From Cyanobacteria bacterium P01_A01_bin.123 (GTDB lineage Bacteria; Cyanobacteriota; Cyanobacteriia; Phormidesmidales; Phormidesmidaceae): 64,000 bases of DNA. Below, piece after piece: positions 29,285-63,847 of the stretch (its first letter is position 1; each line of letters begins with the position of its first letter). The notes beneath the pieces were generated by a model. That model ran no database searches. It worked only from the letters and a program-made list of their open reading frames with translations, and had not been told where the DNA came from. Location of the stretch: positions 64,001 to 128,000 of the forward strand of contig JBCBZT010000011.1 of assembly GCA_039815185.1 (NCBI GenBank), in the 5' to 3' direction. A program made the translations under genes and the position numbers.

Positions 29285-29316
29285 GTTATAACCGACTAAG
29301 TTGAGGATTTTATGAG
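29285..29316 (-). promoter_or_regulatory. Direct-repeat box plus -10 (regulon motif), facing the PAS kinase operon
   Basis: CTCATAAAATCCTCA-N11-TATAAC. Confidence 0.6.
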
Positions 29317-29382
29317 TAACTCTCCGAAGCCGTAAAGCGTTTCGCTCCGGGCATTACCCCCTTGAGCTCAGTTAAGCGTCGC

Positions 29383-29414
29383 CTCATAAGTTCCTCAATA
29401 TCATTCATTACACT
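29383..29414 (+). promoter_or_regulatory. Direct-repeat box plus -10 (regulon motif)
   Basis: CTCATAAGTTCCTCA-N11-TACACT. Confidence 0.75.
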
Positions 29415-29459
29415 GCCAAGTGTCTAGTTCATCCAAACGTCAGTTTGAGGGGGGGGGCA

Positions 29460-30998
29460 ATGACAGTTGATTACTTGATTGTAGGAAGCGGTCTATCTGC
29501 GCTGGTCTTCGGTGCGCTCATGGCCAACGCCGGAAAACAGGTGCAAATTTTGGAATCCCATGAGCACCCTGGCGGGTTTGGCCATACCTTTACCATGGCC
29601 CAAAAATACACCTTCAATGCCCAACTGCACTACGTTTGGGATTGTGGCGCAGGCAATACGGTGAACCGGGTGCTGAAACGGCTTGATCTCGATCAGGCTA
29701 TTACTTTTGAACGGTATGACCCGGATGGATTCGATCACATGCGAATGCCCGGTTATGCCCTAGATATTCCCTCAGATGCGGCCACGTTGATTCAGCGACT
29801 CTCTCAGCTTTTCCCTGACCACCAAAAGCCAATCCAGCAATTTATTGACGAAGTTCAAAACGTTCGGGCTGGATTGAAAATCCTGTCTCCACCCGTGCAG
29901 CCCTTAGAACTACTGAAGCACTTGGGTCAGGCAACAGCAACAGCTCGGTATATGAACAGCACCTTACAGGATGTTTTCGATAAGTTTAAGCTGCCCGAAG
30001 CCGCACAAACCCTACTGGCGCTGCAATGGCCTGATTTTTTGTTGCCGCCAAACCAACTTTCCTTTTATGCCTGGGTAATTCTGTTTACCGGCTATCAAGA
30101 AGGTGCATTTTACCCGACTCAACATTTTGAAGCGGTTATCAATGCCTTAGTCAGCGTGATTGAAAACCATGGTGGGCGGGTCTTGCTGAATCAAGAAGTC
30201 GTGAACTTTTTGGTCACAGACAAAACAGTCGAGGGGGTTCAGGCAATTGACCGCCTCACCCACGTGACCCAAGACTTCACTGCCGATACCATCATCTGCA
30301 ATATGGATCCGAAAAAAGCAGCCAAGATGATCGGCATTGAAAAGTTCTCGAAGGCAATCTGCAAAAAGTTGGATTATGACTACTCCCCTTCAAATTTTAT
30401 GGCCTACTGTGTGGTCAAAGATCTAGACCTGCGGGACTACGGATTTGGCAAGTGGAATATCTTTCATACTGAGCATCCCAATCTGAACGATGCCTTTGAT
30501 CAGATGTATGGTCAGAACGATTTTTCCCAGCTCAGCTTTGCCATCACAACACCGACCTTACTGACAGACGAACATCGAGATTGTCCCAAGGATTGCCAAA
30601 TCATTGAGTTTTTAACCGTCGCGAACTACGACTATTTTCGGGAGCTGCTAGCGCGCGATCGCAAGCTTTATAACCAAAAAAAAGCAGAGATTCTAGACCA
30701 CATTCTCGACATTGTTGAAGCCCATTATGTGCCTAACTTGAGAGACCATCTCGTCTTCAAGATCACCGGTAGCCCAACCACCAATGAACGGTTTTGTAGC
30801 TGCCCCAGCGGTAATTCCTACGGATCAAGCCTGACTCCCAAAAATATGGGGCTGGGTCGGCTGAATCATCAGAGTTCGCTAAAGAATTTCTATTTCTGCA
30901 ATGCCTCCTCTGGTTATCCAGGCTTTGCGCCTACCTTTTGGACGGGGGCACTTCTGTATCAAAGACTGTCCGGCGATGTCATTTTAGGGAAGGGCTAA
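29460..30998 (+). CDS. Phytoene desaturase / retinol saturase-like FAD oxidoreductase
   Basis: IVGSGLSAL dinucleotide-binding motif, PGGFGHTF, SPTTNERF...GNSYG C-terminal motif. Confidence 0.8.
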   Translation: MTVDYLIVGSGLSALVFGALMANAGKQVQILESHEHPGGFGHTFTMAQKYTFNAQLHYVWDCGAGNTVNRVLKRLDLDQAITFERYDPDGFDHMRMPGYALDIPSDAATLIQRLSQLFPDHQKPIQQFIDEVQNVRAGLKILSPPVQPLELLKHLGQATATARYMNSTLQDVFDKFKLPEAAQTLLALQWPDFLLPPNQLSFYAWVILFTGYQEGAFYPTQHFEAVINALVSVIENHGGRVLLNQEVVNFLVTDKTVEGVQAIDRLTHVTQDFTADTIICNMDPKKAAKMIGIEKFSKAICKKLDYDYSPSNFMAYCVVKDLDLRDYGFGKWNIFHTEHPNLNDAFDQMYGQNDFSQLSFAITTPTLLTDEHRDCPKDCQIIEFLTVANYDYFRELLARDRKLYNQKKAEILDHILDIVEAHYVPNLRDHLVFKITGSPTTNERFCSCPSGNSYGSSLTPKNMGLGRLNHQSSLKNFYFCNASSGYPGFAPTFWTGALLYQRLSGDVILGKG

Positions 30999-31003
30999 AG
31001 GCT

Positions 31004-32281
31004 ATGAGAATCGCAATCATTGGAGGTGGCGCCAGTGGCATGGTGACGGCCTACTTGCTCGATCAACAAAGGCATCAGGTCACAGTTTTTGAACGCCAAT
31101 CAGTTTTAGGCGGACACATTCGCACCCTCAACAAAAATGTGCAGCCCAACCATTCAAACTCTGACCAAATCTTGGAAAACGGCGTACTGGAGTTTCCAGC
31201 TGCGTTTCACAACTTCTTGGCGCTGATGCAAACCTTGGAGGTTGAGTTAGACCCCGTTGATATTGGCTCTGCATTGTTTTTGCAAGATGGTCGTCATTTT
31301 CTCTCCAGTACTATGATTCGCAAGAATTTTACGGGGATGCAACGGCTCCTGGAATATCTAAGGCTAGATACGCTGTACGCTCGTTCGGCTGGATTTTGGG
31401 TGAGAATGCAATTTCGAAAGATGCAGGATTTTTATGCCCAGCCCATGTCTCAGCACTTGCCACGCCCCTGTATTCGCAACTGCTGGCTCAAATTGTTGAC
31501 CATGTACAGCTATTCCATGCCCTTTGAGCTGATTGATGATTTTCCCGCAGAGTTGGCGATTCCAGCCCTACGTCAATATATTTTCGTCCATTGGTTCAGA
31601 ATTAAGGGCGGCGTGTATACCTACATTGAAAAAATTCTGGAACGGTTTAGAGGCACAATTTTCCTCAATGCCAACGTGAAAGGGATTACCCGAAATCCTA
31701 ATGGCGTTGCCATCGAGTTGCCCGAGGGATCGCAGTCGTTTGACAAGGTGGTGTTTGCAACACCACCAGATCAGGTGATGAAGCTGTTGGCTGACCCCAC
31801 CCCAGCTGAATGCAAGCGCTTCTCAAGTTGGCGGGAGAACCAAGTGCGAACCCTTCTCCATTCAGATACAACAATGTACGAGCGCTATGGCATTGCCCAA
31901 CCTTCGGAGTTTGACTTTTTCCAAACCGATGAAGGCTGGGGCTACAATGCTTTCCTGAATCAGCTCTGCGGGATTGACTCACCCCAACGTTATAGTTTGG
32001 CTTTTAACCTGGCTGGCCTGATTGACAAGGACAAAATCCTCCATATTCAAGAACACCACACGCCGCTGTATACGGTCGAGTCTTTCCACCATCGCGACCA
32101 GGTGATTGAGACCAATGGCGAGAATAATACTTACCATGCGGGGGCCTATCTTGGGGATGGCTTGCATGAGGGGGCTGTGACCTCTGCTATGCGAGTGGCT
32201 AAGTTGGTGGGCTCTCGGAATTCACCTGATTGGGCGCCATCCCTCTCGACCAGGGCCTTGATCAGATTCTCCATAGGCTAG
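31004..32281 (+). CDS. FAD/NAD-binding oxidoreductase (amine oxidase-like)
   Basis: IAIIGGGASG, LGGH, HHTP, GAYLGDGLHEGAVTSA. Confidence 0.82.
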   Translation: MRIAIIGGGASGMVTAYLLDQQRHQVTVFERQSVLGGHIRTLNKNVQPNHSNSDQILENGVLEFPAAFHNFLALMQTLEVELDPVDIGSALFLQDGRHFLSSTMIRKNFTGMQRLLEYLRLDTLYARSAGFWVRMQFRKMQDFYAQPMSQHLPRPCIRNCWLKLLTMYSYSMPFELIDDFPAELAIPALRQYIFVHWFRIKGGVYTYIEKILERFRGTIFLNANVKGITRNPNGVAIELPEGSQSFDKVVFATPPDQVMKLLADPTPAECKRFSSWRENQVRTLLHSDTTMYERYGIAQPSEFDFFQTDEGWGYNAFLNQLCGIDSPQRYSLAFNLAGLIDKDKILHIQEHHTPLYTVESFHHRDQVIETNGENNTYHAGAYLGDGLHEGAVTSAMRVAKLVGSRNSPDWAPSLSTRALIRFSIG

Positions 32282-32419
32282 CCCATTGGCTTCTGCATAG
32301 CGCTGCATAAATCGCAGGCATCGTTCCCAATGATCGTTTCCCTGTCGGGGTACAAGGCTCTCATCTTTTGGGCTGATGATACGCTGCTGACCAGAGTTGT
32401 TTTTGCTAGCTTAACCCTT

Positions 32420-32989
32420 ATGGCGTCTTCTTCCTGGCAAACTCAGAATCGCTTTTTAGAAATGCGAACCCAATGGCTGACGCTCATTGGTGAGCACCTG
32501 ATCGATAACCAGGGACAAACCTTAGAATACTGGCGGATCGAAAAGGCTGATTCGGTCATCATTTTGCCCATTCATCGTCAGCAGATCCTGCTGCCCCTAC
32601 CTACCTATCGGCCCGGTTTGGGCGAAACAACGTGGGATTTTCCGGGTGGGCGTGTATCTCAGGGGCAAACGCCTAGCACCATGGTACCCATGATCTTGAA
32701 ACGGGAAATGGGGATTGGGGAAGATGCGATCGCGCCAGCGCTGGCCGGTCAGCTCACATCCCTCAAACCGCTTGACTCAACTGGATGGGCTATCAATAGT
32801 GCGTTCTCAAATCAGCGTCTCTACGGCTTTGCTGTCGATCTCAATCCAGCCTTAGAGCTTGATTCAGCGCTCATAGGCAATAGGCTCCCGGCTACTCAGT
32901 CGGGCATTCAAGACTTGCTCAGTCTCCTCACCTGCTTGCAATGTCGCGCCGTTTTACTACAGTGGTGGCTGGCCCAAAATATGGCATGA
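32420..32989 (+). CDS. NUDIX-fold protein with degenerate Nudix box
   Basis: YRPG...WDFPGG motif of ADP-ribose pyrophosphatase-like proteins. Confidence 0.65.
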   Translation: MASSSWQTQNRFLEMRTQWLTLIGEHLIDNQGQTLEYWRIEKADSVIILPIHRQQILLPLPTYRPGLGETTWDFPGGRVSQGQTPSTMVPMILKREMGIGEDAIAPALAGQLTSLKPLDSTGWAINSAFSNQRLYGFAVDLNPALELDSALIGNRLPATQSGIQDLLSLLTCLQCRAVLLQWWLAQNMA

Positions 32990-33079
32990 GGTCAGCATAT
33001 TTGCGATGGTCGTTCACGGGTTTGCTCAATCCGTGACATCATGACCTATTGAATTTGAATGTGGTGGAGAGCGCACACG

Positions 33080-33733
33080 ATGGAGATTGGACAGCTACGG
33101 AAGGAATATGGTCGTCTAGAACTGCATCGAAAGCAACTACCGAATCACCCATTGCCCCTCTTTGAACAGTGGTTTAAGGAGGCCTGCGATCAGGCAGATC
33201 TACCTGAGCCCAATGCCATGACGTTGGCAACCATCTCTCCAGAGGGCATCCCCGCTCAACGCACTGTACTACTCAAATATTTTGACCTGAATGGGTTTGT
33301 GTTTTTTAGCAACTACGAAAGTCGCAAAGCTAAGCATATTGAACAAAATCCAGTGGCGTCGCTATTGTTCCTGTGGTTACCCCTTGAGCGTCAAGTAGAA
33401 ATTCAAGGTCGGGTTGAGCGGGTGCCAACGGCGGAGTCTTTAGCCTATTTCACGTCGCGGCCTCGGGGATCTCAACTAGGGGCGTGGTGTTCCCAGCAAA
33501 GCCAAGTGATCACTTCCCGTAAGCTGCTAGAGCTCAAGCTGGATGAAATGCGACGAAAGTTTGCCAACCGCCAAGTGCCGCTACCGAGCTTTTGGGGAGG
33601 TTATCGGATTGTGCCCCATCAGGTTGAGTTTTGGCAGGGGCGTCCAAATCGGTTGCACGATCGGTTTTTGTATGTGCGTGACCCCGACGCTTCTGGGGTT
33701 AACGATTGGCAGATTCAGCGGTTAGCCCCTTAA
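33080..33733 (+). CDS. pdxH: Pyridoxamine 5'-phosphate oxidase
   Basis: EPNAMTLAT, RTVLLK, NYESRK, EFWQGRPNRLHDR, RLAP. Confidence 0.96.
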   Translation: MEIGQLRKEYGRLELHRKQLPNHPLPLFEQWFKEACDQADLPEPNAMTLATISPEGIPAQRTVLLKYFDLNGFVFFSNYESRKAKHIEQNPVASLLFLWLPLERQVEIQGRVERVPTAESLAYFTSRPRGSQLGAWCSQQSQVITSRKLLELKLDEMRRKFANRQVPLPSFWGGYRIVPHQVEFWQGRPNRLHDRFLYVRDPDASGVNDWQIQRLAP

Positions 33734-33765: not shown

Positions 33766-33797
33766 CTCATCACTTCCTCAAAGTTTATGTGTAGCGT
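33766..33797 (+). promoter_or_regulatory. Direct-repeat box plus -10 (regulon motif)
   Basis: CTCATCACTTCCTCA-N11-TAGCGT. Confidence 0.7.
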
Positions 33798-33828: not shown

Positions 33829-34233
33829 ATGGATATCGATCTTGAAAACACGGCCACGCCTTCAGGCGAACCTCCAGATGAAACCAATGCCGCGATCGCC
33901 CCGACTGAGGCCGAGACCAACGATCAGGAAAAGGTCACCGTAGAAGAATTTAAAGTCTCGGGCGATGCCTTGGTCGCCAAAATCAAGGAGCTGATTCACC
34001 AGGGTAATATTCGTCGCATCATTATCAAAAATCAAAACGGCCATACTCTGATCGAGATTCCGATGACCGTCGGGGTGATTGGCGGTGCCATCGGAGCAGT
34101 CATTTTTCCCGTTGTTGCTGCTGTTGCCGTCATTGGTGCGATGGTCACCCATCTGACCGTTGTGATTGAGCGTCAGGCGTCAAGCCAGTCGAGTGACTCA
34201 GAAGACTATCATGATTCAGAACAAGAAGCATAG
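33829..34233 (+). CDS. DUF4342 domain protein
   Basis: EEFKVSG...KIKELIHQGNIRRIIIK...LIEIP...G motif. Confidence 0.82.
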   Translation: MDIDLENTATPSGEPPDETNAAIAPTEAETNDQEKVTVEEFKVSGDALVAKIKELIHQGNIRRIIIKNQNGHTLIEIPMTVGVIGGAIGAVIFPVVAAVAVIGAMVTHLTVVIERQASSQSSDSEDYHDSEQEA

Positions 34234-34310: not shown

Positions 34311-34634
34311 ATGGGTCATAAATCTACGGAAACGAATCCAAAAGTTCAGGCAACAGGCACCATCTGGGGTTGTGCTATTGGCATGTTAGGGGTGTGTATT
34401 CCCTTGGTTGCGATTACCAACAGTGGTTTGATACTGCCCCTTCTGGTGATTCTTAGTGCAGTCGGTGGGACAGTTGCAGTATGGCTTGCCCCTGACAAGC
34501 GTCAGCGAGGGGAGGCTCATTTAGCTCAGACTATAAAGGTGTTGGAGGCACGGGTGATGAATCTAGAGACGATTTATGTCAGCCTTCCCGAGGCTGACAA
34601 ACCCCTGCCACTCCCAGAAATAGACAAGCATTGA
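34311..34634 (+). CDS. Small two-TM membrane protein with coiled coil
   Basis: IWGCAIGMLGVCIPL; LEARVMNLETI. Confidence 0.7.
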   Translation: MGHKSTETNPKVQATGTIWGCAIGMLGVCIPLVAITNSGLILPLLVILSAVGGTVAVWLAPDKRQRGEAHLAQTIKVLEARVMNLETIYVSLPEADKPLPLPEIDKH

Positions 34635-35148: not shown

Positions 35149-35814
35149 TCAAACCAGGTGTTTTTGGAACCATCGATTGGCAAGCTGGGTGACTTGTGCC
35201 AGAGTGCCGGGTTCTTCGAACAGATGAGTTGCCTTTGGGACAATCTCCAGATGTTTTTCAGCAGGGATATATCGGTAAGCCTTCTGATTCAGGATGATGA
35301 CGGGCGCGTCATTGCCTCCCACAATTAACAGCGTAGGTGTTTTGAGGCGCGTTAGAACAGAACCAACCAGATCGGGGCGTCCACCCCGTGAAACAATCGC
35401 TTTGACCGCATCTGGGCGGGCCACTGCAGCCATTAGTGCAGCAGCGCTACCTGTACTGGCTCCAAAGTAGCCAATCTTAAGCTGGCGAGTGACGGGGTTT
35501 TGCAATAACCAGTCAGTTGCCCCAAGCAGTCGCGCTGCAAGCAAACCGATATCGAAGCGGAGGTGATGGGTTTGTCGATCAATGTTTTCTTCTTCGATTG
35601 TTAGCAGGTCAAATAACAGGGTTGCTAATCCAGCTTGTTGCAGGGTTTGAGCCACATAGCAGTTACGAGGGCTGCGCCGACTGCTGCCACTGCCGTGGGC
35701 AAACAAGACAATCCCCTGAGCACTAGCGGGTACCGCTAGATTGCCGATTAATCGCACTGAATCTGTTGGGATCGAAATTAAGGTGTTATGGTCCTGTTTC
35801 TGTATCGTATTCAT
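35149..35814 (-). CDS. Dienelactone hydrolase-family alpha/beta hydrolase
   Basis: FAHGSGSSR, GYFGASTG, SRGGRPDL, HLFEEPG. Confidence 0.88.
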   Translation of the reverse strand: MNTIQKQDHNTLISIPTDSVRLIGNLAVPASAQGIVLFAHGSGSSRRSPRNCYVAQTLQQAGLATLLFDLLTIEEENIDRQTHHLRFDIGLLAARLLGATDWLLQNPVTRQLKIGYFGASTGSAAALMAAVARPDAVKAIVSRGGRPDLVGSVLTRLKTPTLLIVGGNDAPVIILNQKAYRYIPAEKHLEIVPKATHLFEEPGTLAQVTQLANRWFQKHLV

Positions 35815-35832
35815 GGGGTTGACCTCCTGAAT

Positions 35833-36516
35833 TCAGCCAATAGCGTTTGGCATGGTGGGGATGAAGCTGATGTTGTGATGCTGTTGAGCCAACAGTTTAC
35901 GAACTTCTTCATCTGTGGTTTGGTCGAAGTACTCGTACCAAAGACTGATGGCATAAAAGGGAGTTGGGGTAGCTAGACAAGTCATTTGATCGACTTCAGC
36001 TTTTAAGGTTTGGTAAGTGTCTATCGGCGCAACGGGGGTGGCAACAATAAGCTGTCGGGGGCGCTGTGATTTCAGAACGGCGATCGCGGCCTGCATTGTT
36101 GCGCCTGTTGCAATGCCATCATCAACCAGAATGACAATTTGATCGCGAATTTCTGGCTGGGGCCGATTGCCCCGATAGGCACGATCTCGTCGTTGCAGTT
36201 CTCGCAGTTCTCGGGCAGTAACCCGTTCAAGGGTCTGATCAGAAATGCTGAGTGAGCTGAGGATGTCGTCGTTAAGTATCCGAACGCCGCCAAAGGCGAT
36301 CGCCCCCATAGCTAACTCCCTATGATCAGGAACTCCCAGCTTTCGCACCAGACAAATATCGAGGGGCAAATTTAAAGCATGAGCCACCTCATAGGCCACA
36401 GGTACACCGCCTCGGGGCAACCCCAATACCAGCACATCAGTGCGACTGGCATAGGCTTTGAGCTGGTTTGCTAGTAGCTGTCCTGCTTCAATGCGATTGT
36501 AAAATCTAGTGCCCAT
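35833..36516 (-). CDS. Phosphoribosyltransferase family protein
   Basis: LPRGGVPVA, ELAMGAI, VDDGIATGATM PRPP-binding loop. Confidence 0.92.
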   Translation of the reverse strand: MGTRFYNRIEAGQLLANQLKAYASRTDVLVLGLPRGGVPVAYEVAHALNLPLDICLVRKLGVPDHRELAMGAIAFGGVRILNDDILSSLSISDQTLERVTARELRELQRRDRAYRGNRPQPEIRDQIVILVDDGIATGATMQAAIAVLKSQRPRQLIVATPVAPIDTYQTLKAEVDQMTCLATPTPFYAISLWYEYFDQTTDEEVRKLLAQQHHNISFIPTMPNAIG

Positions 36517-36586
36517 AATCCTCACCTTTTTATCTTGCTCATCTTGTCGCTCGAATGGCAAAAGATTTGAGCTTCATCCTGACTTC

Positions 36587-36618
36587 AGGCTAGAGAAATA
36601 ATCTGAGGACTTTATGAG
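36587..36618 (-). promoter_or_regulatory. Direct-repeat box plus -10 (regulon motif)
   Basis: CTCATAAAGTCCTCA-N11-TAGCCT. Confidence 0.75.
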
Positions 36619-36730
36619 GGCATCATCCATTGCAGCCCCTTATCAGAGGCGGCTTCATAAGTTCCTTAAGGAAGTTTGGCGGGCCGATTAAACCATTTTT
36701 GTAGCGTTTTGGGTGTATCTGGCCAACGTC

Positions 36731-36762
36731 TTCATAACTTCCTCAAACTCTCTCTCTAAGCT
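36731..36762 (+). promoter_or_regulatory. Direct-repeat box plus -10 (regulon motif), nifJ promoter
   Basis: TTCATAACTTCCTCA-N11-TAAGCT; extra upstream box TTCATAAGTTCCTTA at 36654-36668. Confidence 0.75.
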
Positions 36763-44051: not shown

Positions 44052-45135
44052 GTATCGTGATGAAACACTCGTTCAAGAGTATGTCAGGGCGATCGCATCG
44101 CTGATCACCCAACCCTGGACCCTGATGGAAATTTGTGGCGGCCAGACCCACACCATCGTTAAATATGGCCTCGACCAACTGCTGCCTGCCGAAATCACGT
44201 TGATTCATGGGCCTGGCTGTCCGGTCTGTGTTACCGATACTGCCCTGATCGATCAAGCACTTACTCTAGCAGCCCAACCCGACATCATCTTTTGCTCCTA
44301 TGGCGATATGTTGCGGGTGCCAGGTACCGCCACGGATTTACTGAGTGTTAAGGCTCAGGGCGGTGACGTGCGAATCGTCTACTCTCCTCTAGATGCTTTA
44401 GCCTTGGCCCGCAGTCACCCAGACCGAGAGGTGGTGTTTTTTGCCGTTGGGTTTGAAACCACCGCCCCAGCTACGGCTATGGCAGTCTACCAGGCTCATC
44501 AGCAACAAATTGAGAACTTTTCAGTGTTAATTGCCCATGTGCTTGTTCCCCCAGCAATGGAGGCGATTTTGGCCTCCCCTGACTGTCGGGTGCAGGGCTT
44601 TTTAGCGGCTGGTCATGTTTGTACAGTAATGGGATATGGAGAGTACCATGCGATCGCCCATAAGTATCATGTCCCTATTGTGGTGACTGGCTTTGAACCT
44701 GTTGATATCTTGCAAGGTGTTTATCTCTGTTTACAACAGCTAGAAGCAGGATGTGCTGAGATTGACAATCAATATGCTCGATCTGTTCAAGCCCAAGGCA
44801 ATCTGCTGGCACAACACCTCATGGAGCAGGTTTTTCAGATTGTTCCTCGAGTGTGGCGGGGGCTGGGCAGTCTGACCCAGAGTGGCTTAGGACTTAAGAA
44901 ACCCTATGATTACCTGGATGTCCAGGTGCGGTTTGCAGACCGACTTCGCTTCCAGACTGATCTCCTGAGTGTGGATAACACCTGCATTAGCGGTCTCGTG
45001 TTGCAGGGTTTGAAAAAGCCCCGTGACTGTCCTGCCTTTGGAACGCGTTGCCGCCCCGAACATCCCCTTGGGGCTCCAATGGTGTCTTCGGAGGGAGCCT
45101 GTGCAGCCTACTATCGCTATCGCTCAGCGTCATAA
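44035..45135 (+). CDS. hypD: Hydrogenase maturation protein HypD
   Basis: [39 protein letters not shown]. Confidence 0.96.
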
Positions 45136-45199
45136 GTTCCTCGCCTTTTTTCGTTTTGGAGGTGAAGCTGAGTTCTGTGGATGCCCCATCCATATCCAC

Positions 45200-46317: not shown

Positions 46318-46399
46318 CGTTATGTGGAGAATTGTCGAAACTGCTGCACTGATCAGGCTTGCAGACTGACGGGTCAGCTTTCTCGCGATCGCGAGAAAG

Positions 46400-48466: not shown

Positions 48467-48498
48467 AGTGTAGAGATCAGATTTGGGGAACTTATGAG
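48467..48498 (-). promoter_or_regulatory. Direct-repeat box plus -10 (regulon motif), ftsH promoter
   Basis: CTCATAAGTTCCCCA-N11-TACACT. Confidence 0.75.
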
Positions 48499-50910: not shown

Positions 50911-50970
50911 GGTGGGGTCTCCGGGGTGAATGATTTGGGAAAGATGAGGAGAGTAAAGAAGATAGGGTAG

Positions 50971-51354: not shown

Positions 51355-51376
51355 AATCGCTTCCCCACCTTCCCCA

Positions 51377-52579: not shown

Positions 52580-52582
52580 GAC

Positions 52583-54952: not shown

Positions 54953-55088
54953 GGTGGGTTCCTCATTGTGGGGGTGGGAGGGGGGGAGTAATGGAGGGAG
55001 GGGGTGATGGCGTAACGGGGTAGGGATGGTGGGGAGGTGAGGGGATGGGGAGCGGGGGAATGGAGAGAGAGGTGGCAGAGCAGTAGAC

Positions 55089-55162
55089 GGGGAGATGGGG
55101 AGATGGGGAGATGGGGAGATGGGGAGATGGGGAGGCTTGTCCTGAGCTTGTCGAATGGGCGG
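55089..55162. repeat. (GGGGAGAT)5 tandem repeat plus CTGAGCTTGTCGAA dispersed-repeat fragment in a G-rich spacer
   Basis: Five exact 8-mers at 55089-55128. Confidence 0.8.
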
Positions 55163-55288
55163 AGTTGAAGGATGGGGAAGATTTGGAGACGTGTTGTTTG
55201 GGGGGTGAGGAACGGGGTTTCTGGGGAGGGTGTTGGGTAAAACCGTGAGGAGCGTGTGAGAAACCCGGTTCCTGTGTGCAAGTGCAGG

Positions 55289-58027: not shown

Positions 58028-58918
58028 TCAAGGTATTGCTTGACAGCTCCTGAAGTGAGACCTACGTTGATAAACAGATTTCTCTGGCTGAATGTGCTGT
58101 TCCAACCAGAAAAGAATATCTTGAGAAACGGCCAGCGCACAGGTATCATTGTGCAAATCATGATAAGCCCCCAAGTATTCTCGATACGACTTATCTAAAC
58201 ACGGCAGTTTTTCAAAGGCCGTACGTCCGCTTTCATTTAAGGCAACTGGATCACGACTGCCATGCAAAATTAAAATGGGCGTCGTTAGATCAGGTAAATG
58301 AGATTGAATCCATTGCTTTGTTTTGAGGAATTCTGCTGCTAAGCGGGCCGTTCCTTGGCTATGTCGAAGTGGGTCATTGTCATAGGCAGATATAAGGGTT
58401 GGGTCATGTGAACCGCCATCTTTTGCAAGACCAGTATTGAGGGTAAATTGAGGCCAAATCCAAGATAGAAGCTGGCCGATTGCTAGCTTTAAAGGTGAAA
58501 CTCCAACAGATCCAATGGCAGGTGCAAGCGTAATAATTCCCGAGAGGGCTTCAGGATAGTGCAGTGCATAGTCCAGGATAATCACTGCTCCCAAGCTGTG
58601 GCCCAATGCAAAATAGGGGAGGTTGGGGTTTTGGGTCATCATCAGCTGCCAGAACTGATGCAAATCTCCACGAAAGTCTTCCCAATGACTAATGAAGCCC
58701 CGTTGCCCAGGGGACTGACCATGGCCACGCAAATCTAACGCATACACGCCATACCCCTGCTCAACCAAGGGGGCGACCACTCTCATAAACCAACCGCTGT
58801 GGCTACCCAAACCGTGAACAATGCCGATGATAGCCTTCACATGCTGATCGGGGAACCAGCTTTGATAATACAAATCCAGCCCGTCAATGCCGGATAACCA
58901 ACTTTCAATGTGTTGCAT
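58028..58918 (-). CDS. Monoacylglycerol lipase / lysophospholipase-like alpha/beta hydrolase
   Basis: VHGLGSH, DLRGHGQS, GHSLG, HGSRD, YHDL. Confidence 0.9.
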   Translation of the reverse strand: MQHIESWLSGIDGLDLYYQSWFPDQHVKAIIGIVHGLGSHSGWFMRVVAPLVEQGYGVYALDLRGHGQSPGQRGFISHWEDFRGDLHQFWQLMMTQNPNLPYFALGHSLGAVIILDYALHYPEALSGIITLAPAIGSVGVSPLKLAIGQLLSWIWPQFTLNTGLAKDGGSHDPTLISAYDNDPLRHSQGTARLAAEFLKTKQWIQSHLPDLTTPILILHGSRDPVALNESGRTAFEKLPCLDKSYREYLGAYHDLHNDTCALAVSQDILFWLEQHIQPEKSVYQRRSHFRSCQAIP

Positions 58919-58976: not shown

Positions 58977-60707
58977 CTAAGCGTGTTTGGCAGTTTGGTT
59001 AGCAGTATTACCCTTATCTCTTCTGACATTTTTGGCAGTGACTGTTGGTGAAGAAAACTCTGCCATCAATTGGCTGTCTAAGCACTGCAATTTCTTATCT
59101 AAGGCAGCTTTGGATTTTTCACTGATTAATCCAAGTGCATCGGGAGAATGACTTAAATAGGCGGCATAGTCTGCGCTGAGGTAAGCTTCTATGTCTCTTT
59201 TCTCTGGCTTCAAATACCGATCGAAAAAAGCAATGCTGAGGGCTTTCATGGGCGCATCGACTAAAGCATTTGTTCCGGTAGCGGATACTGATTGGGGTGA
59301 CCAATCGATTTCTAAATTCAAGTCACTCACAAAGCGTTGTAAATCTCGAATATGTGACTTGCCCTGCACTAAAGCTAAGTACTGATTAAACCCGGTTAAG
59401 CCTTGAAAGATGCGGATTTGCTCCAGAACGAGTGGGGCTACCATGTCATGTTCCCCTGCTATTAACATAACGGGAACTTGGATTTGGGCTAGGCCCGTTG
59501 TGCCAAAAATCTCGCTGCCCACTGAGTCCAAACAGAGGATGGCCTGAATCCGATGATCTTGGAGTTGGTAGAGCTGTCGTGGCAACACTAGGGCCTGACA
59601 TTGCAACAGCATTGAAAAATTCGGGTCCGGAGTAGGTAATCCACAGGCTTGTGCAAGTCTTTTGAAGTGGATAGTAGCACCGGCTAGGGCAAACGCACTA
59701 TAAGCCCCAAAGGAATGCCCCATGATCCCAACCCGCTCTAGATTGAGCTTACCGGCCCACGCACTTCCAAAACCTTGAGCGAGTTGATCAAGCAAGTAGC
59801 TGATATCTAAGGGACGATCGATGAATGTTGAGAGCTTAAAGACTTCAGCCCTGTCTCCTGATAGCATGCGACGAATCTGTTCAACATCACTACCAGGATG
59901 CTGGGGCGTCACCACAAAGTAACCATAGGAGGCTAAGTGACGCGCATATAAGTCAACGCCATCTGGCTTCGACGCTAAGCCATGGGACTGAACGATGACA
60001 GGGACAGGTTGGAGAGGCCAGGGATCTGGCTCGTAACAGAGCACTTCCAGTGGACAGGTGTCTTCCTCAAGGCAATCGTCCCGTCTCCTGCCTGGTAAAG
60101 TCAGGTGCGATCGCTGTACTGCAAATTCACCCACGGTTCGCAAATCGGGAAAGGTAGCGAAATGTTGTGCGGGAATCAGTTGGGCCTCTGCCTTTGACAA
60201 CTGGTGAATGGTTTCTGTTGCGATTCGAGTCGCCTCAATCAACCATTCGACGCGTTTTGCCGTGAATAGCAGTTGATCCAGGTTGAATTGCAGCGTTTCG
60301 GGAAAATGACGTAATGCGCTAAGTAATGACAATCCCGCTGGATCCGCTGCCATCTGCACCAAGAGCTCTCTAAGAGACTGTTTGGGATTGTGATGACTCG
60401 GCCATTTGAAAAAGCGTTCAACCCAGTCCAACCATAGCTCTCCTATCGAAGTATGAAAAAAACGATAGAGCTGTTTGGGATTCAGGCTCAGGCGAGTTTG
60501 CAGAACACGCTGACACCTTGCCTGTAGAGCTGCATTACTACCTTCCAAGTAAAGCTCACAGGTTTTTTGAGCTACACGGGGCAGTTTTTGAGCTACGAGA
60601 AGCCCTTTAACTTTTCGCAGGAACCGGATAAATGGAGCAATGACAGTATTTCTGGGTCGCTTGGCGGGAGACAAAAGATTAGGTGGGCGTGAGGGTGCAT
60701 TAGTCAT
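58977..60707 (-). CDS. DUF1400-type alpha/beta hydrolase
   Basis: SHGLAS, QHPGSD, DRPLDISYLLD, GHSFG, LQCQAL. Confidence 0.85.
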   Translation of the reverse strand: MTNAPSRPPNLLSPAKRPRNTVIAPFIRFLRKVKGLLVAQKLPRVAQKTCELYLEGSNAALQARCQRVLQTRLSLNPKQLYRFFHTSIGELWLDWVERFFKWPSHHNPKQSLRELLVQMAADPAGLSLLSALRHFPETLQFNLDQLLFTAKRVEWLIEATRIATETIHQLSKAEAQLIPAQHFATFPDLRTVGEFAVQRSHLTLPGRRRDDCLEEDTCPLEVLCYEPDPWPLQPVPVIVQSHGLASKPDGVDLYARHLASYGYFVVTPQHPGSDVEQIRRMLSGDRAEVFKLSTFIDRPLDISYLLDQLAQGFGSAWAGKLNLERVGIMGHSFGAYSAFALAGATIHFKRLAQACGLPTPDPNFSMLLQCQALVLPRQLYQLQDHRIQAILCLDSVGSEIFGTTGLAQIQVPVMLIAGEHDMVAPLVLEQIRIFQGLTGFNQYLALVQGKSHIRDLQRFVSDLNLEIDWSPQSVSATGTNALVDAPMKALSIAFFDRYLKPEKRDIEAYLSADYAAYLSHSPDALGLISEKSKAALDKKLQCLDSQLMAEFSSPTVTAKNVRRDKGNTANQTAKHA

Positions 60708-60935
60708 GGCACACAACCTCTAACGAGACAACATGACGTTGTCTACTCCGCTCCCTTCAAATCTATGATGACTTACAGGCTTCATAGTTGTGGAGAGTTG
60801 GCAACCATTAGCAATAAAGAAGTCAGCGACTCGTCTAATGACTATGCCACGCTCTCTCTAGGAACTTGCCAAGCGGTTTGGCCACCCAACTTACCCACCT
60901 TTGTAAAGTATCAATGTCCCCGTTGATAGACCGTT

Positions 60936-61135: not shown

Positions 61136-61207
61136 AGTTTAGATGAACAATATGAGGAACTTGTGAACATCACTGACCACAAGTTCCTCATATTGTTTTC
61201 TTAGTAT
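61136..61207. promoter_or_regulatory. Back-to-back regulon promoters forming a perfect 20-bp inverted repeat
   Basis: Minus strand TTCACAAGTTCCTCA-N11-TAAACT; plus strand ACCACAAGTTCCTCA-N11-TAGTAT; IR at 61146-61165 and 61178-61197. Confidence 0.7.
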
Positions 61208-61304: not shown

Positions 61305-61735
61305 ATGATGCTAAGACGTTTTTTAAGTTTATGTATAGGATTGGGTTTATTGATTGTCTGCTGGACTGGGCTGGGATTTGATCAACCTGCAAGTGCTCAG
61401 ATATTGGCAAGCGCACACTTTGATAATCAGCCTATCCTCGCTGAGGTATGACGTAACCCTGTGGATAAGCACCTGACTGAAGTTGGCTCAAAGATTGACC
61501 TGAAAAACTCGAATGTAGGTGCCTTTACACAATATCGAGGATTATACCCAACATTGGCACAGAAAATCATTAGGATGCTCCCTTCAATACAGTCGAAGAT
61601 ATCCTCAATATCCCAGGATTAAGTGATAGCGAGCTTAATATTCTTAAAGCCAATTTGGATCATTTTGTAGTGAATCCACCTGAACCAGCCTTGGTTGAAG
61701 GGGGCGATCGCATTAATCCTGGCATTTACAAATAG
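61305..61735 (+). pseudogene. psbU: Photosystem II 12-kDa extrinsic protein pseudogene
   Basis: [31 protein letters not shown] and [16 protein letters not shown]...EGGDRINPGIYK lie in different frames; in-frame TGA at 61449-61451; frameshifts in the signal peptide and near 61573. Confidence 0.88.
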
Positions 61736-61879
61736 ACCTTTTCCCACTCTGAATTCACAGTTTTCCCTGTCGGAATATAGAGCCTTATCCTCCTGGTCAA
61801 GGATTCTAGATCGGATGTAGTTTAGGGCTGGGTTCATATCAACTTATACCGTCATCGATTTGTAGCATTGGAGGTAATT

Positions 61880-62842
61880 ATGAAAAAAATTCAATTGAGC
61901 CAAACAGGAGTAGAAGTCAGTTGTTTAGCTTTAGGAACGCTGCGCTTTGGCACCCTCAACACATACGAAGAATCAGCCCAGTTAATGGATCTTTACTGTG
62001 AAGCAGGGGGCATATTTATTGATACTGGCAATAGCTATAACCAATGGAGTGCTGGTGGCAAGGGCGGCGAAAGCGAAGTTGTGATTGGGCGCTGGCTTCG
62101 AGAACGGGGAAATCGAGAGGATCTCTTCATTGCCAGCAAAGTTGGGTTTGGTTACGAGAATGTCCCCGATGGGCTGGCCGCATCCACCATTATTTCAGAA
62201 TGCGATCAAAGTCTGAGGCGGTTGGGTATCGATCATCTGGATCTGTACTATGCCCATAAAGATGACCCGAACACGCCCTTAGAAGAAACCCTCACAGCGT
62301 TTCACCAGTTGGTGAAAGCGGGTAAGGTACGGTTTGTTGGGGCGAGCAATTATCGTGCTTGGCGGTTAGTAGATGCCGATGCGATCGCCGTCGCACAAGG
62401 TTGGGCCGGGTTTACCTGCATCGAACAGCGGTTTACCTACCTGCGCCCCAATCCTGGTGCCGACTTTGGCGTTCAACGCTTAATCAATGCAGATCTGATG
62501 AGCTATTGCGATGCCCGGGGCAAAACGATGCTGCCTTACACCCCGCTCCTGCGAGGCGCTTACGTTCGTCCTGATCGGCCTGTCCCCGCGACCTATGTTG
62601 GCCCTGATATGGATGCTCGGATGGCGGCCTTAAGGGAAGTCGCTCAGGAACTTGACGCAACCTTAAACCAGATGGTGTTGGCTTGGATGATGCATCGTCA
62701 ACCACCCCTGCTGCCTGCTTTTTCCGGTGGTAAACCCGAGCACATGCGAGAAAATCTGGGGGCGCTAAATCTAACACTCTCTCCTGAGCAGATGGCCAAA
62801 CTCAACAATGCAGGCCACTGTGTGAATGAGGAACCCAACTAA
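61880..62842 (+). CDS. Aldo/keto reductase
   Basis: FIDTGNSY, ASK, SLRRLGIDHLDLYYAH, GKVRFVGASN. Confidence 0.94.
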   Translation: MKKIQLSQTGVEVSCLALGTLRFGTLNTYEESAQLMDLYCEAGGIFIDTGNSYNQWSAGGKGGESEVVIGRWLRERGNREDLFIASKVGFGYENVPDGLAASTIISECDQSLRRLGIDHLDLYYAHKDDPNTPLEETLTAFHQLVKAGKVRFVGASNYRAWRLVDADAIAVAQGWAGFTCIEQRFTYLRPNPGADFGVQRLINADLMSYCDARGKTMLPYTPLLRGAYVRPDRPVPATYVGPDMDARMAALREVAQELDATLNQMVLAWMMHRQPPLLPAFSGGKPEHMRENLGALNLTLSPEQMAKLNNAGHCVNEEPN

Positions 62843-62870
62843 GGGAACTGCACGGAAGTAACCTACCAAA

Positions 62871-62893
62871 GGGGTTTGGTATTGCCAAACCCC
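62871..62893. terminator. Hairpin between convergent genes
   Basis: GGGGTTTGGT-ATT-GCCAAACCCC. Confidence 0.5.
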
Positions 62894-63039
62894 ACAGTAG
62901 AAAACTGCACTATTGATAGCAAGCTGTTTCAGCAGGACTTTATCAAGCTGATTCAGCAGATGACTGTCCTAAAGCATCTACGGCTTGAGGCATCAAAAAC
63001 ACTTCTCCTTTTTAGCAATTTCTAGACCAGTAGCCTTCC

Positions 63040-63759
63040 CTAGACAACAACCGTAGCTCGCCCACAAAGTTCATTCGCAGGGACAGCTTCCATCATCTTT
63101 TTGGGATTCGGCAGGTTGAGATCGGTCATAAACTTGATAAAGCTTTGGCGATCGCGCAAGCCCTGATCCGTTGCTTCAAGATTGACAAACCGGGGGTTCC
63201 ATCGCTTTTCTTCACCAATGGTTGAGACCGTATGACCGCGATAGTCGTGGCCTGGGTAAATCAATGCCGTGTCAGGTAGGGTAAACAGCCGCTGCGTCAC
63301 TGAGTCATACAGCGTACCCGCGTTACCGCTTTGGAAGTCAGTGCGGCCACAGCCCCGAATGAACAACGCATCCCCAGTCAACACCCGATTATCGACCTGA
63401 TAAGCCATGTGGCTGTCGGTGTGTCCAGGGGTAGCAATGGCTTTTAAGGTAATCGCCCCTAATGTCAGATGTTCGCCATCGTCAATGTGGCGGTCGGCAC
63501 AGCTGACTTGGGCATGGCTAGGAACAATACCCAAGCAACCTGTCACAGCGCGTAGCTTATCTGCCCCGATAATATGGTCAGCATGGACGTGGGTTTCAAC
63601 GCAGTAGCGCAGGGCTAGCCCTAACTCTTTGAGGAGTTTAAGATCACGCTCAACTTGTTCCAGCACGGAATCGACCAGAATTGCCGCTTTCGAATCGGTG
63701 TCAGCAATTAGGTAAGTGTATGTACATGACTCTTGGTCAAATAATTGCCGGAATAACAT
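63040..63759 (-). CDS. ETHE1-like persulfide dioxygenase (metallo-beta-lactamase fold)
   Basis: FRQLFD, ETHVHADH, TPGHT, TGDALFIRGCGRTDF, YPGHDY. Confidence 0.9.
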   Translation of the reverse strand: MLFRQLFDQESCTYTYLIADTDSKAAILVDSVLEQVERDLKLLKELGLALRYCVETHVHADHIIGADKLRAVTGCLGIVPSHAQVSCADRHIDDGEHLTLGAITLKAIATPGHTDSHMAYQVDNRVLTGDALFIRGCGRTDFQSGNAGTLYDSVTQRLFTLPDTALIYPGHDYRGHTVSTIGEEKRWNPRFVNLEATDQGLRDRQSFIKFMTDLNLPNPKKMMEAVPANELCGRATVVV

Positions 63760-63815
63760 GAGACTTTCCCCCTTTGCTGCATGACCTGTGAAATGAGTAC
63801 AGGCTATCCATCCCT

Positions 63816-63847
63816 AGACTAGGCAAACAGTTTGAGAAAGTTGTGAG
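63816..63847 (-). promoter_or_regulatory. Direct-repeat box plus -10 (regulon motif)
   Basis: CTCACAACTTTCTCA-N11-TAGTCT. Confidence 0.7.

What the first reader, a model, noticed from the sequence alone, without database searches (positions are those of the whole stretch)
29285..63847. De novo regulon: fixed-geometry promoter (C/T)TCA(T/C)-N6-CTCA-N11-TAnnnT at nine transcription units
Seen: the same 15-bp direct repeat (11-bp period) lies on the sense strand upstream of the PAS kinase operon (29302), the desaturase-like operon (29383), DUF4342 (33766), PRT-hydrolase (36604), nifJ-DHODH-pfkA-hypD (36731), ftsH (48484), both directions at 61153 and 61176, and the persulfide dioxygenase (63833). 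At all nine, a -10 hexamer starts exactly 11 nt later: TATAAC, TACACT, TAGCGT, TAGCCT, TAAGCT, TACACT, TAAACT, TAGTAT, TAGTCT. Two more boxes (36654, 45129) lack the -10. Established: 11-bp-period repeats overlapping the -35 region are typical of OmpR/PhoB-family activators, and cyanobacterial ManR, NrsR/RppA and CopR boxes are TCA/TGA-based repeats. Inference: a 35-kb co-regulated island for dark fermentation or low-oxygen/sulfide conditions. No OmpR-type regulator is encoded in the window.
Basis: partly seen in the sequence, partly recalled or inferred. Interest (0 to 1): 0.9.

Follow-up and report, generated by a model that had tools for sequence, protein, structure and literature searches.

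The report
Conserved cyanobacterial fermentation-regulon promoter motif
A 32-base promoter signature (two 11-base repeats plus a -10 box at a fixed distance) marks about 35 transcription units for hydrogenase, pyruvate fermentation and stress-survival genes in this cyanobacterium and recurs in many other cyanobacteria, pointing to an undescribed regulon and a likely regulator.

Summary
The strict pattern occurs 6 times in the window against 0.03 expected.

The window holds only part of the system. The genome has about 35 such promoters. Nineteen of them (PWM score 22 or more) lie in a 61-kb island that runs past the window's end. That island also carries hox, hyp, a second pfk, an N-type ATPase, Usp, Hsp20 and CBS genes.

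The motif is conserved well beyond this genome. 138 of 301 sampled cyanobacterial genomes have a strict match, and some have 15 to 22, while a reversed control gives 0 to 2. It sits before orthologous nifJ operons in two families.

No OmpR-type gene lies on the window's contig. A large RcaC-architecture regulator (receiver, winged helix, HPt, receiver) lies elsewhere in the genome, beside a CBS-PAS-GAF kinase and a small receiver. Its relatives sit next to motif sites in at least seven families.

Best reading: activator-dependent promoters of a fermentation and low-energy survival regulon. Expression, transcription starts and binding remain untested.

The parts
29285..29316 (-). Motif promoter (box 29302-29316, -10 TATAAC 29285-29290). 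It precedes the PAS histidine kinase 26970-29030, the receiver protein 26501-27112 and the hybrid kinase 25364-26461.
   Evidence: Pfam. This is the weakest of the nine: full-matrix score 16.1, box-only 21.3. There are 254 nt between the -10 and the start codon.
29383..29414 (+). Motif promoter (-10 TACACT). It precedes two FAD/amine-oxidase (weak CrtI-family) oxidoreductases 29445-30998 and 30938-32281, an unknown ORF 32330-32989 and a PNPOx-like gene 33059-33733.
   Evidence: Pfam; NCBIfam.
33766..33797 (+). Motif promoter (-10 TAGCGT). It precedes DUF4342 33829-34233 and ORF 34311-34634.
36587..36618 (-). Motif promoter (-10 TAGCCT). It precedes the phosphoribosyltransferase-domain gene 35833-36561 and the hydrolase 35149-35814.
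36654..36668 (+). Extra box (second unit ends CTTA) with no -10 at the fixed distance. It lies between the two divergent promoters.
36731..36762 (+). Motif promoter (-10 TAAGCT). It precedes nifJ (pyruvate:ferredoxin oxidoreductase) 36803-40537, an unknown ORF 40609-41529, a DHODH-like gene 41608-42624, pfk 42723-44051 and hypD 44035-45135.
   Evidence: In the orthologous promoters of five genomes from two families, most invariant columns (22 of 25) fall inside the 33-nt block.
45129..45143 (+). Box ending CTCG with no -10, at the 3' end of hypD and upstream of ORF 45314-45733.
   Evidence: (box score 18.6).
48467..48498 (-). Motif promoter (second unit CCCA, -10 TACACT). It precedes ftsH 46400-48370 and DUF3122 45781-46416.
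61136..61167 (-). Motif promoter (-10 TAAACT), 419 nt upstream of the DUF1400/hydrolase gene 58977-60716. The hydrolase 58028-58918 follows.
   Evidence: The long leader, or a small ORF within it, was not resolved.
61176..61207 (+). Motif promoter (-10 TAGTAT). It precedes a broken psbU-like gene (about 61306-61735) and the aldo/keto reductase 61868-62842.
   Evidence: In G014 a motif site precedes a small ORF, an intact PsbU paralogue and the same reductase.
63816..63847 (-). Motif promoter (-10 TAGTCT). It precedes the MBL-fold hydrolase 63040-63759.

Best explanation
The motif is the core of an activator-dependent promoter class.

Anatomy. Two 11-bp direct repeats (unit CCTCAnAnnTT) take the place of a -35 box. 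They end at a fixed distance from a sigma-70-type -10 (TAnnnT): 11 nt from the second CTCA. If transcription starts about 7 nt after the hexamer, the repeats span roughly -39 to -18.

Proposed mechanism. A winged-helix (OmpR/PhoB-class) response regulator binds the two units head to tail and recruits RNA polymerase.

Most likely regulator. A large RcaC-architecture protein (receiver, winged helix, HPt, receiver; 606 aa) at G000 C101:107766-109583, outside the window. It would be fed by the CBS-PAS-GAF-PAS histidine kinase and the single-domain receiver about 9 kb downstream on the same contig. This would be a phosphorelay of the RcaE-RcaF-RcaC or RfpA-RfpC-RfpB type.

The regulon. About 35 promoters in this genome, and orthologous ones in many cyanobacteria. 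Together they would switch on:
- fermentative energy metabolism: nifJ, two pfk genes, PEP synthase, the hox hydrogenase and hyp maturation genes, and an N-type ATPase; in relatives also ADP-forming acetyl-CoA synthetase and the arginine deiminase pathway;
- survival functions: Usp, Hsp20, CBS and CBS-CP12 proteins, FtsH; in relatives also Lon, GroES/EL and a hibernation factor.
The likely conditions are darkness, low oxygen or low energy charge.

What is shown and what is inferred. Shown: the motif, its geometry, its placement, its conservation and its genomic linkage to the regulator family. Inferred: binding, activation rather than repression, the start sites and the signal.
For: 1. The motif is far above chance and has fixed geometry. 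It lies in intergenic DNA on the sense strand.

2. No -35-like hexamer accompanies it. The repeat period is 11 bp and the two units share C-C-T-C-A-n-A-n-n-T-T (position counts).

3. It is conserved across genomes.
- 133 strict matches in 41 related genomes, against 4 for the reversed control.
- 138 of 301 class-wide genomes have a match, up to 19 in that sample (22 in G014), with controls of 0 to 2.
- In the nifJ-operon promoters of five genomes from two families, most invariant columns (22 of 25) fall inside the 33-nt block.

4. The genes behind it are coherent in function and recur.
- This genome.
- G014: 29 matrix sites in 120 kb, with nifJ-DHODH-pfk, PEP synthase-Usp-Usp, Hsp20, FtsH, Lon, GroES and the ADI pathway.
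- G122, G214 and G308, from other families: nifJ-DHODH-pfk, PEP synthase, acetyl-CoA synthetase, protoglobin, Usp, CBS-CP12, CMAS.

5. Evidence for the regulator.
- The architecture is receiver, Trans_reg_C, Hpt, receiver. Its N-terminal module passes the NCBIfam RppA cut-off (273 against 250 bits).
- All nine relatives with a full-length homologue of 48% identity or more have 2 to 22 motif matches. The eight same-family genomes with no match have homologues of at most 46% identity.
- Class-wide, all 15 genomes with a homologue of 48% identity or more (one a partial match) have at least one match, against 138 of 301 overall.
- Matrix sites of score 20 or more lie in the flanks of 13 of 17 cyanobacterial loci that encode a relative, and in 0 of 10 non-cyanobacterial loci.
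- The gene lies within 0.1 to 6 kb of motif sites in G014, G007, G022, G010, G012, G006, G024, G021, G004, G034, G104, G127, G122, G308, G204, G280, G203, G240 and G290.
- In G122 the gene follows a motif-driven PEP synthase gene and precedes a PAS kinase.
- A 24-member clade (support 94/92) holds the G000 protein and most of these relatives (20 further rows are Leptolyngbya-type; G034 and G127 were not in the tree). It also holds a Pleurocapsa MAG and G308, and excludes G000's own paralogues.

6. Controls.
- An ordinary OmpR regulator 6.5 kb from a site in G000 shows no such linkage in 5 of 5 genomes.
- The sigma factor that follows a site in G014 has no close orthologue in G000.
Against: - There are no expression, start-site or binding data. 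No RNA run was listed.
- In G000 the regulator is 9 kb from the nearest site and has no motif of its own.
- Linkage could mean only that the regulator gene travels with the island.
- Several motif-rich genomes (G204, G241, G280, G273, G226) have only 43-46% identical homologues, which identity alone cannot separate from paralogues.
- In G203 and G280 the homologue next to the sites was not the top-scoring one. I picked it after seeing the positions.
- Tree placement is imperfect. The G012 homologue pairs with paralogue C84, and the G122 homologue is unresolved on a long branch.
- Two long loci with relatives, from a Pleurocapsa MAG and Oscillatoria sp. CS-180, have no site of score 20 or more in 21 kb.
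- The related genomes are not independent samples.
- The repeats lie about 5 bp closer to the -10 than I recall for classical pho boxes. That comparison is from memory and was not tested.
- A published OmpR-type factor (Hrr1) binds a partly similar 11-nt repeat (PMC13079394, passages read).
Confidence: 0.6

Rival explanations
1. The promoters are of the same class, but the factor is an ordinary single-receiver OmpR-type regulator. One candidate is a homologue of Hrr1, the hydration-responsive regulator of Nostoc flagelliforme. The RcaC-like gene would then be only a neighbour or a member of the regulon.
For: PMC13079394 (passages read) reports that Hrr1 binds an 'H box', a pair of 11-nt direct repeats AGGAATTTACM. 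The reverse complement of the upstream unit here (AGGAAsTTrTG) matches it at 7 of 11 positions, by my own hand comparison. The paper also says a desert Leptolyngbya encodes an Hrr1 homologue. G000 has 27 winged-helix regulators. G014 has a 356-aa OmpR-type gene on the same strand downstream of a motif-driven M48/CBS-CP12/ftsH unit.
Against: - The second unit matches the H box at only about 5 of 11 positions.
- The reported Hrr1 targets (sigB1, cpeR1, wspA) are not of this gene set.
- The paper says close Hrr1 homologues are mostly in Nostoc, whereas the motif is widespread.
- The G014 356-aa regulator has no equivalent in G000. Its best match is the N-terminus of a 1139-aa hybrid protein.
- The OmpR gene nearest a site in G000 shows no conserved linkage in 5 of 5 genomes.
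- The Hrr1 sequence itself could not be tested here.
Confidence: 0.2
2. The repeats are an operator for a repressor that sits on the promoter. The units would be derepressed, not activated.
For: The site overlaps the region from about -39 to -18, where a bound protein could block polymerase. According to PMC5737509 (passages read), RcaC both activates and represses. Two boxes without a -10 (36654, 45129) show that the box can occur apart from a promoter.
Against: The promoters have no recognisable -35, which is the usual mark of dependence on an activator (position counts). A repressor does not need single-base-fixed spacing to the -10, yet 24 of 33 strong boxes have it. The orientation is always sense.
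Confidence: 0.1
3. The whole 32-nt signature is read by a dedicated alternative sigma factor: CCTCA as an upstream element and TAnnnT as the -10.
For: The spacing between the two conserved elements is fixed. In G014 a 299-aa sigma-70-family gene with a weak region 4 match lies directly behind a motif site.
Against: That sigma has no close orthologue in G000 (best 48-51% identity, none near a site). The upstream element is a tandem duplication with an 11-bp period, which fits two protomers of a dimer and not one sigma region 4. The -10 is of the ordinary sigma-70 type.
Confidence: 0.06
4. The similarity comes from chance, or from a dispersed repeat or recent duplication of promoter segments, with no shared regulation.
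For: Some sites are clearly duplicated along with their genes: C6:142456 with C101:123619, C6:128188 with C49:108925, and C59:8745 with C101:122417.
Against: Shuffles give 0.03 against 6 observed. Reversed and mis-registered controls give 0 in this genome. Flanks outside the 33-nt block are not conserved. The block is kept before orthologous genes across families.
Confidence: 0.02

Closest known systems
RcaE-RcaF-RcaC (type 3 chromatic acclimation) and RfpA-RfpC-RfpB (far-red photoacclimation) phosphorelays of cyanobacteria
   Same: The cast is the same: a sensor kinase with PAS/GAF domains, a single-domain receiver, and a large DNA-binding regulator with an OmpR-class winged helix. The receiver, winged helix, HPt, receiver order of RcaC is recalled, not taken from the paper. 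The regulator acts at promoters of a dedicated gene set. The relay order is as given in PMC5737509 (passages read). The domain order of the protein here is from Pfam.
   Different: The targets are fermentation, hydrogenase and stress genes, not phycobilisome or photosystem genes. The kinase carries CBS domains, and nothing suggests bilin or light sensing. The DNA site differs from the L box as far as I recall it. The one paper I read calls the L box an inverted motif, and I could not check its sequence.
PhoB/OmpR-type activator sites (pho-box architecture)
   Same: Two direct repeats about one helical turn apart replace the -35 box at a set distance from an ordinary -10. This is the textbook architecture, recalled and not tested here. 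The N-terminal module of the candidate regulator scores 257 bits on the PhoB model and passes the RppA model.
   Different: The repeat sequence is different. The repeats seem to lie a few bases closer to the -10 than in pho promoters (recalled). The regulator is a four-domain relay protein, not a two-domain PhoB.
Hrr1 and its H box (Nostoc flagelliforme; PMC13079394)
   Same: An OmpR-type factor binds a pair of 11-nt direct repeats with an AGGAA..TT core. The setting is stress and rehydration in the dark (passages read).
   Different: Only 7 of 11 and about 5 of 11 positions agree. The reported targets differ. Hrr1 is described as an OmpR-type factor whose close homologues are mostly confined to Nostoc. 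The paper's supplementary figure with the logo could not be seen.
DosR (DevR) dormancy regulon of Mycobacterium tuberculosis (functional analogy, recalled)
   Same: Gene content is similar: many Usp proteins, an Hsp20-type alpha-crystallin, CBS proteins, a phosphofructokinase, and redox and fermentation functions, under a two-component system with GAF/PAS sensor kinases.
   Different: DosR is a NarL/LuxR-type regulator with a palindromic site. Here the site is a direct repeat and the candidate regulator is OmpR-class. There is no homology of the cis-element.
Known regulators of cyanobacterial hox and nifJ (CyAbrB1/2, SigE, RpaA)
   Same: The target genes are the same (hox operon, nifJ). These regulators are listed in the 2026 review PMC13421787 (passages read).
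   Different: According to that review, CyAbrB2 binds AT-rich DNA covering more than 15% of the genome, and RpaA is the circadian output regulator. Neither is linked there to this direct repeat. The review passages I read name no RcaC-like regulator for these genes.

Membership tests
OmpR/PhoB-type activator-dependent promoter | Tandem direct repeats about 10-11 bp apart | tested here: met
   The units at motif positions 0-10 and 11-21 share CCTCAnAnnTT. C, T, C and A are kept in 31-35 of 35 sites.
OmpR/PhoB-type activator-dependent promoter | Repeats replace the -35 box at a fixed distance from a sigma-70-type -10 | tested here: met
   TANNNT starts at offset 11 in 24 of 33 strong boxes, and other offsets have at most 1. 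No TTGACA-like hexamer appears in the position counts.
OmpR/PhoB-type activator-dependent promoter | Bound by a winged-helix response regulator; transcription depends on it | not testable with these tools
   The only evidence is genomic linkage to a Trans_reg_C protein family.
OmpR/PhoB-type activator-dependent promoter | Transcription start 6-8 nt after the -10 | not testable with these tools
   No RNA run was listed for this DNA.
RcaC/RfpB-type phosphorelay | Regulator with receiver, OmpR-class winged helix, HPt and second receiver | tested here: met
   Pfam: Response_reg x2, Trans_reg_C 147-221, Hpt 261-342 in the 606-aa protein. The same order is seen in G014, G122 and G308.
RcaC/RfpB-type phosphorelay | Partner sensor kinase and single-domain receiver encoded nearby | tested here: met
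   A CBS-PAS-GAF-PAS kinase (1040 aa) and a 128-aa receiver lie 9 kb downstream on C101. They are adjacent or within about 1 kb in G014, G007, G122 and G308.
RcaC/RfpB-type phosphorelay | Light-colour sensing through a bilin-binding GAF or phytochrome module | not tested
   The kinase has one GAF domain, but no test for a bilin-binding cysteine or a cyanobacteriochrome signature was made.
RcaC/RfpB-type phosphorelay | Targets are phycobilisome or photosystem genes | tested here: not met
   The downstream genes are nifJ, pfk, hox, hyp, Usp, Hsp20, ATPase and the like. Only PsbU and Psb28 paralogues touch photosynthesis.
Hrr1 / H box | Pair of 11-nt direct repeats AGGAATTTACM (PMC13079394) | tested here: inconclusive
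   Hand comparison of the reverse complement gives 7 of 11 for one unit and about 5 of 11 for the other. The published logo could not be seen.
DosR-type dormancy regulon | NarL/LuxR-type regulator with a palindromic site | tested here: not met
   The site is a direct repeat and the linked regulator is OmpR-class. Only the gene content is alike.

The most novel reading that the evidence does not exclude
A widespread cyanobacterial master switch for life without photosynthesis. An energy- or oxygen-sensing CBS-PAS-GAF kinase feeds a four-domain RcaC-type relay regulator. The regulator binds CCTCAnAnnTT tandem repeats and turns on hydrogenase, pyruvate fermentation, substrate-level ATP formation, an N-type ATPase and a Usp/Hsp20/CBS survival set. 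This would be a functional counterpart of the mycobacterial DosR dormancy regulon, built from the same relay design that cyanobacteria use for light-colour acclimation.
Probability: 0.4. Interest if true: 0.85.

Novelty: new variant of a known kind. Interest (0 to 1): 0.78.

Why it matters
How cyanobacteria switch on hydrogenase and fermentative metabolism at night or in anoxic mats is known only in part, and mostly from Synechocystis. The 2026 review I read lists CyAbrB proteins, SigE and RpaA.

This motif is precise, strongly conserved and sits at the promoter. It marks hox, hyp, nifJ, pfk and dozens of stress genes in many filamentous cyanobacteria. It gives three things:
- a ready-made list of co-regulated genes in each genome;
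- a simple sequence test for membership in the regulon;
- a named candidate regulator and kinase to knock out.

It would also show that the RcaC/RfpB relay design is used beyond light-colour acclimation. For work on biological hydrogen it offers a native, probably anoxia-inducible, promoter set.

Tried and rejected
- **RNA evidence.** No RNA holder was listed for window:29000-37500. Start sites and expression therefore stayed unchecked and read laying was not used.
- **Earlier findings of this scan.** Two look-ups returned nothing.
- **Mis-typed pattern.** One search used a pattern with one N too many. It found 0 matches in this genome and 10 across 41 genomes. I kept it as an accidental negative control.
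- **Sigma factor idea.** The sigma gene behind a site in G014 has no close orthologue in G000.
- **G014 356-aa OmpR-type regulator.** It has no equivalent in G000.
- **OmpR gene on C29, 6.5 kb from a site.** No conserved linkage in 5 of 5 genomes.
- **Self-regulation of the candidate regulator.** No motif lies before the gene in G000, G014, G010, G007 or G022. One does in G280, G203 and G204.
- **Literature.**
  - Searches for hox/nifJ/response regulator/motif, Usp/Hsp20/hydrogenase/nifJ, RcaC paralogues and fermentation/two-component found no description of this motif or regulon.
  - A 10-letter core of the motif together with 'cyanobacteri' appears in no paper of the library.
  - The search for the L-box sequence returned only primer noise. 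PMC8739951 gave nothing on it.
  - The search on a desert Leptolyngbya was uninformative.
  - Subscription papers are not in the library, so 'not described' holds only for what was searched.
- **H box identity.** I compared it by hand only. The supplement with the logo was not seen.

Full report
**1. The observation**

The window is G000:C6:64001-128000, from an 8.09-Mb cyanobacterial genome of 50% G+C in 133 contigs.

- The strict pattern YTCAY-N6-CTCA-N11-TANNNT occurs 6 times in the window, against a mean of 0.03 in shuffles.
- The 15-nt box alone occurs 9 times, against 2.45.
- Reading each claimed site confirms all nine promoters. Each is on the sense strand of the unit it precedes, and a hexamer starts exactly 11 nt after the second CTCA.
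- Three sites depart slightly from the stated consensus: TATAAC at 29285-29290, CCCA in the box at 48484-48498, and ACCA at 61176. That is why the strict pattern finds only six.

**2. The scale is larger than the window**

- Genome-wide there are 17 strict matches, 10 of them in C6:93-153 kb.
- A position matrix, built in-script from those matches and iterated once, finds 35 sites scoring 22 or more. Nineteen lie in C6:93.3-154.5 kb. The matrix is trained on its own hits, so the unbiased figures are the pattern counts and their controls.
- Beyond the window's end the island continues with promoters before the following units:
  - hypE
  - a CheY-like receiver
  - two small ORFs followed by a nine-gene N-type ATPase operon
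  - Usp-Usp-hoxE-hoxF
  - Hsp20
  - an unknown ORF followed by hoxU
  - a PstB-like ATPase followed by hoxY
  - a CBS protein followed by hoxH
  - the hydrogenase protease followed by hypA and hypB
  - an adenosine-kinase-family gene followed by hypF and hypC
- Satellite sites on other contigs precede the following:
  - a MacB-type exporter
  - a NUDIX gene
  - cyclopropane-fatty-acid synthase plus a desaturase
  - Hsp20 plus a CBS protein
  - an alcohol dehydrogenase
  - another amine-oxidase-like gene
  - PEP synthase

**3. It behaves like a promoter**

- 32 of 35 sites lie outside long ORFs, against 81 of 400 random positions.
- 21 of 35 are intergenic with a same-strand ORF of 90 aa or more starting within 300 nt, against 26 of 400 random positions (crude ORF map). 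Most of the rest precede small ORFs.
- With a box-only matrix, 24 of 33 strong boxes have TANNNT at offset 11 exactly, and no other real offset exceeds 1.
- The position counts show two 11-bp units, CCTCAnAnnTT, at motif positions 0-10 and 11-21. They show no -35-like hexamer.

**4. Conservation**

- A refined strict pattern gives 19 matches in G000 and 133 in 41 related genomes, against 4 for the same pattern read backwards.
- My mis-typed version with one extra N gave 0 in G000 and 10 overall.
- Counts are uneven within the family. G014 has 22, G007 18, G022 12 and G012 11, while eight genomes have 0.
- In a class-wide sample, 138 of 301 genomes have a match. Many have 11 to 19, and controls give 0 to 2. 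One family of 30 genomes of at most 3 Mb has 1 of 30.
- In G014, 29 matrix sites lie in 120 kb of one contig. They precede nifJ-DHODH-pfk, PEP synthase-Usp-Usp, Hsp20, MgtC, Lon, GroES, FtsH, CBS-CP12, PsbU, Psb28 and a hibernation factor, and the same stretch holds the arginine deiminase pathway.
- In three genomes of other families, sites precede nifJ-DHODH-pfk, PEP synthase, ADP-forming acetyl-CoA synthetase, a protoglobin, a radical-SAM pair, Usp, CBS, CBS-CP12, CMAS and pfk.
- Aligning the nifJ-operon promoters of five genomes from two families puts most invariant columns (22 of 25) inside the 33-nt block.

**5. Which factor reads it**

No Trans_reg_C domain lies on contig C6. The genome has 27, all elsewhere.

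The G014 island encodes a 614-aa protein with receiver, winged helix, HPt and receiver domains. It lies close to a CBS-PAS-GAF kinase and a small receiver. G000 has a 74% identical orthologue of 606 aa at C101:107766-109583. About 9 kb downstream lie a motif site, the orthologous kinase, the receiver, two more motif sites and PEP synthase.

Evidence linking this protein family to the motif:
- Among 40 relatives, all nine with a full-length homologue of 48% identity or more carry 2 to 22 motif matches. The eight same-family genomes with no match have homologues of at most 46% identity.
- Class-wide, all 15 genomes with a homologue of 48% identity or more (one a partial match) have a match.
- Named relatives are from Leptolyngbya sp. 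Heron Island J, L. cf. ectocarpi, Elainellaceae, Nodosilinea and others. Sites of score 20 or more occur in the flanks of 13 of 17 cyanobacterial loci and 0 of 10 non-cyanobacterial loci.
- In G122 the regulator and a PAS kinase follow a motif-driven PEP synthase gene. In G308 the regulator lies 1 kb from a site, next to a PAS kinase.
- Five motif-rich genomes lacked a close orthologue. In each, a large receiver plus winged-helix protein lies 0.1 to 6 kb from motif sites.
- A tree places the G000 protein with 20 other Leptolyngbya-type rows, a Pleurocapsa MAG and G308 in one clade (support 94/92). G000's own paralogues fall outside it.

Evidence that weakens the link:
- In G203 and G280 the homologue next to the sites was not the best-scoring one.
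- The G012 and G122 homologues are not placed cleanly in the tree.
- Two long loci with relatives have no site.
- Related genomes share synteny by descent, so they are not independent.
- Linkage shows association, not binding.

**6. Rivals**

- *An ordinary OmpR-type factor.* A 2026 paper reports that Hrr1 of Nostoc flagelliforme binds a pair of 11-nt repeats whose core resembles the reverse complement of one unit here. I count 7 of 11 positions for that unit and about 5 of 11 for the other. Its reported targets and its distribution differ from this motif's. The two plain OmpR genes that lie near sites in G000 or G014 show no conserved linkage.
- *A repressor.* This fits the overlap with the promoter, but not the missing -35 or the single-base spacing.
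- *A dedicated sigma factor.* This fits neither the tandem duplication nor the absence of a conserved sigma gene.
- *Chance or a dispersed repeat.* The controls exclude this.

**7. Known systems**

- The design is that of the RcaE-RcaF-RcaC and RfpA-RfpC-RfpB relays, but the targets are different and the kinase bears CBS domains.
- The N-terminal module passes the NCBIfam RppA model.
- The gene set recalls the mycobacterial DosR regulon (recalled from memory), but neither the regulator class nor the site is shared.
- The passages I read in a 2026 review of redox regulation list CyAbrB1/2, SigE and RpaA for hox and nifJ, and they do not mention this motif.
- Four topical searches and a search for the motif core found no description of it. 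Subscription journals are outside the library.

**8. Labels corrected**

- The 'persulfide dioxygenase' at 63040-63759 is an MBL-fold protein below the cut-offs of both GloB and the sulfur dioxygenase model.
- The 'desaturase-like' proteins are weak CrtI-family matches.
- The DHODH gene is a 'dihydroorotate dehydrogenase-like protein'.

**9. Verdict**

The finding is real and larger than reported. It is a conserved, activator-type promoter class that defines a fermentation and survival regulon, with a specific, testable candidate regulator. Expression, start sites, binding and the signal remain open.

Noticed in passing
window 61306-61735 (+): The psbU-like gene behind the 61176 promoter is broken. 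It has an in-frame TGA after about 48 codons and a frameshift further on (three-frame translation). G014 has two PsbU-domain paralogues, one full-length (146 aa) in the corresponding unit and a second partial match behind another site. This could be a pseudogene or a draft-assembly error.
   Followed up: partly
window 48553-57481 (-): A fatty-acid beta-oxidation-like cluster lies inside the island without a strong motif site. It comprises acyl-CoA dehydrogenase, thiolase, a 3-hydroxyacyl-CoA dehydrogenase/enoyl-CoA hydratase fusion and an AMP-binding ligase. The ORF at 50971-51354 matches the 23S rRNA-intervening-sequence protein family. A weak box lies at 55246-55260.
   Followed up: no
L001:6675-13608 (G000 C6:134675-141608): A complete N-type ATPase operon, including the AtpR and 'gene 1' subunits typical of N-ATPases. 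It lies downstream of the motif site at C6:133781 and two small unknown ORFs of 81 and 77 aa, which are conserved in G014.
   Followed up: partly
L013-L018 (G014:C2:1-120000): The G014 island sits on a 344-kb contig. It is interrupted by several transposase genes (IS1, DDE_3, DDE_5, DDE_Tnp_1) and split genes (GroEL in two pieces, an amino-acid permease in two pieces, a truncated hypD), which suggests a decaying or mobile second copy.
   Followed up: no
G000 C49:108925/108956, C59:8745, C101:122417/123619, C100:6343: Several satellite promoters are near-copies of island promoters together with their genes. Parts of the regulon are therefore duplicated in this genome.
   Followed up: no
L007:7133-7804 (G000 C29:63132-63803): A 223-aa protein with a weak receiver match and an HTH_23 domain, followed by a CHASE2-domain protein. 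It lies downstream of the motif-driven cyclopropane-synthase/desaturase pair on the same strand. It could be a second-tier regulator.
   Followed up: no
L073:5100-6266 (G214) and L075:15718-16458 (G308): Crp-family regulators lie next to motif sites in two distant genomes. One carries a PAS domain.
   Followed up: no
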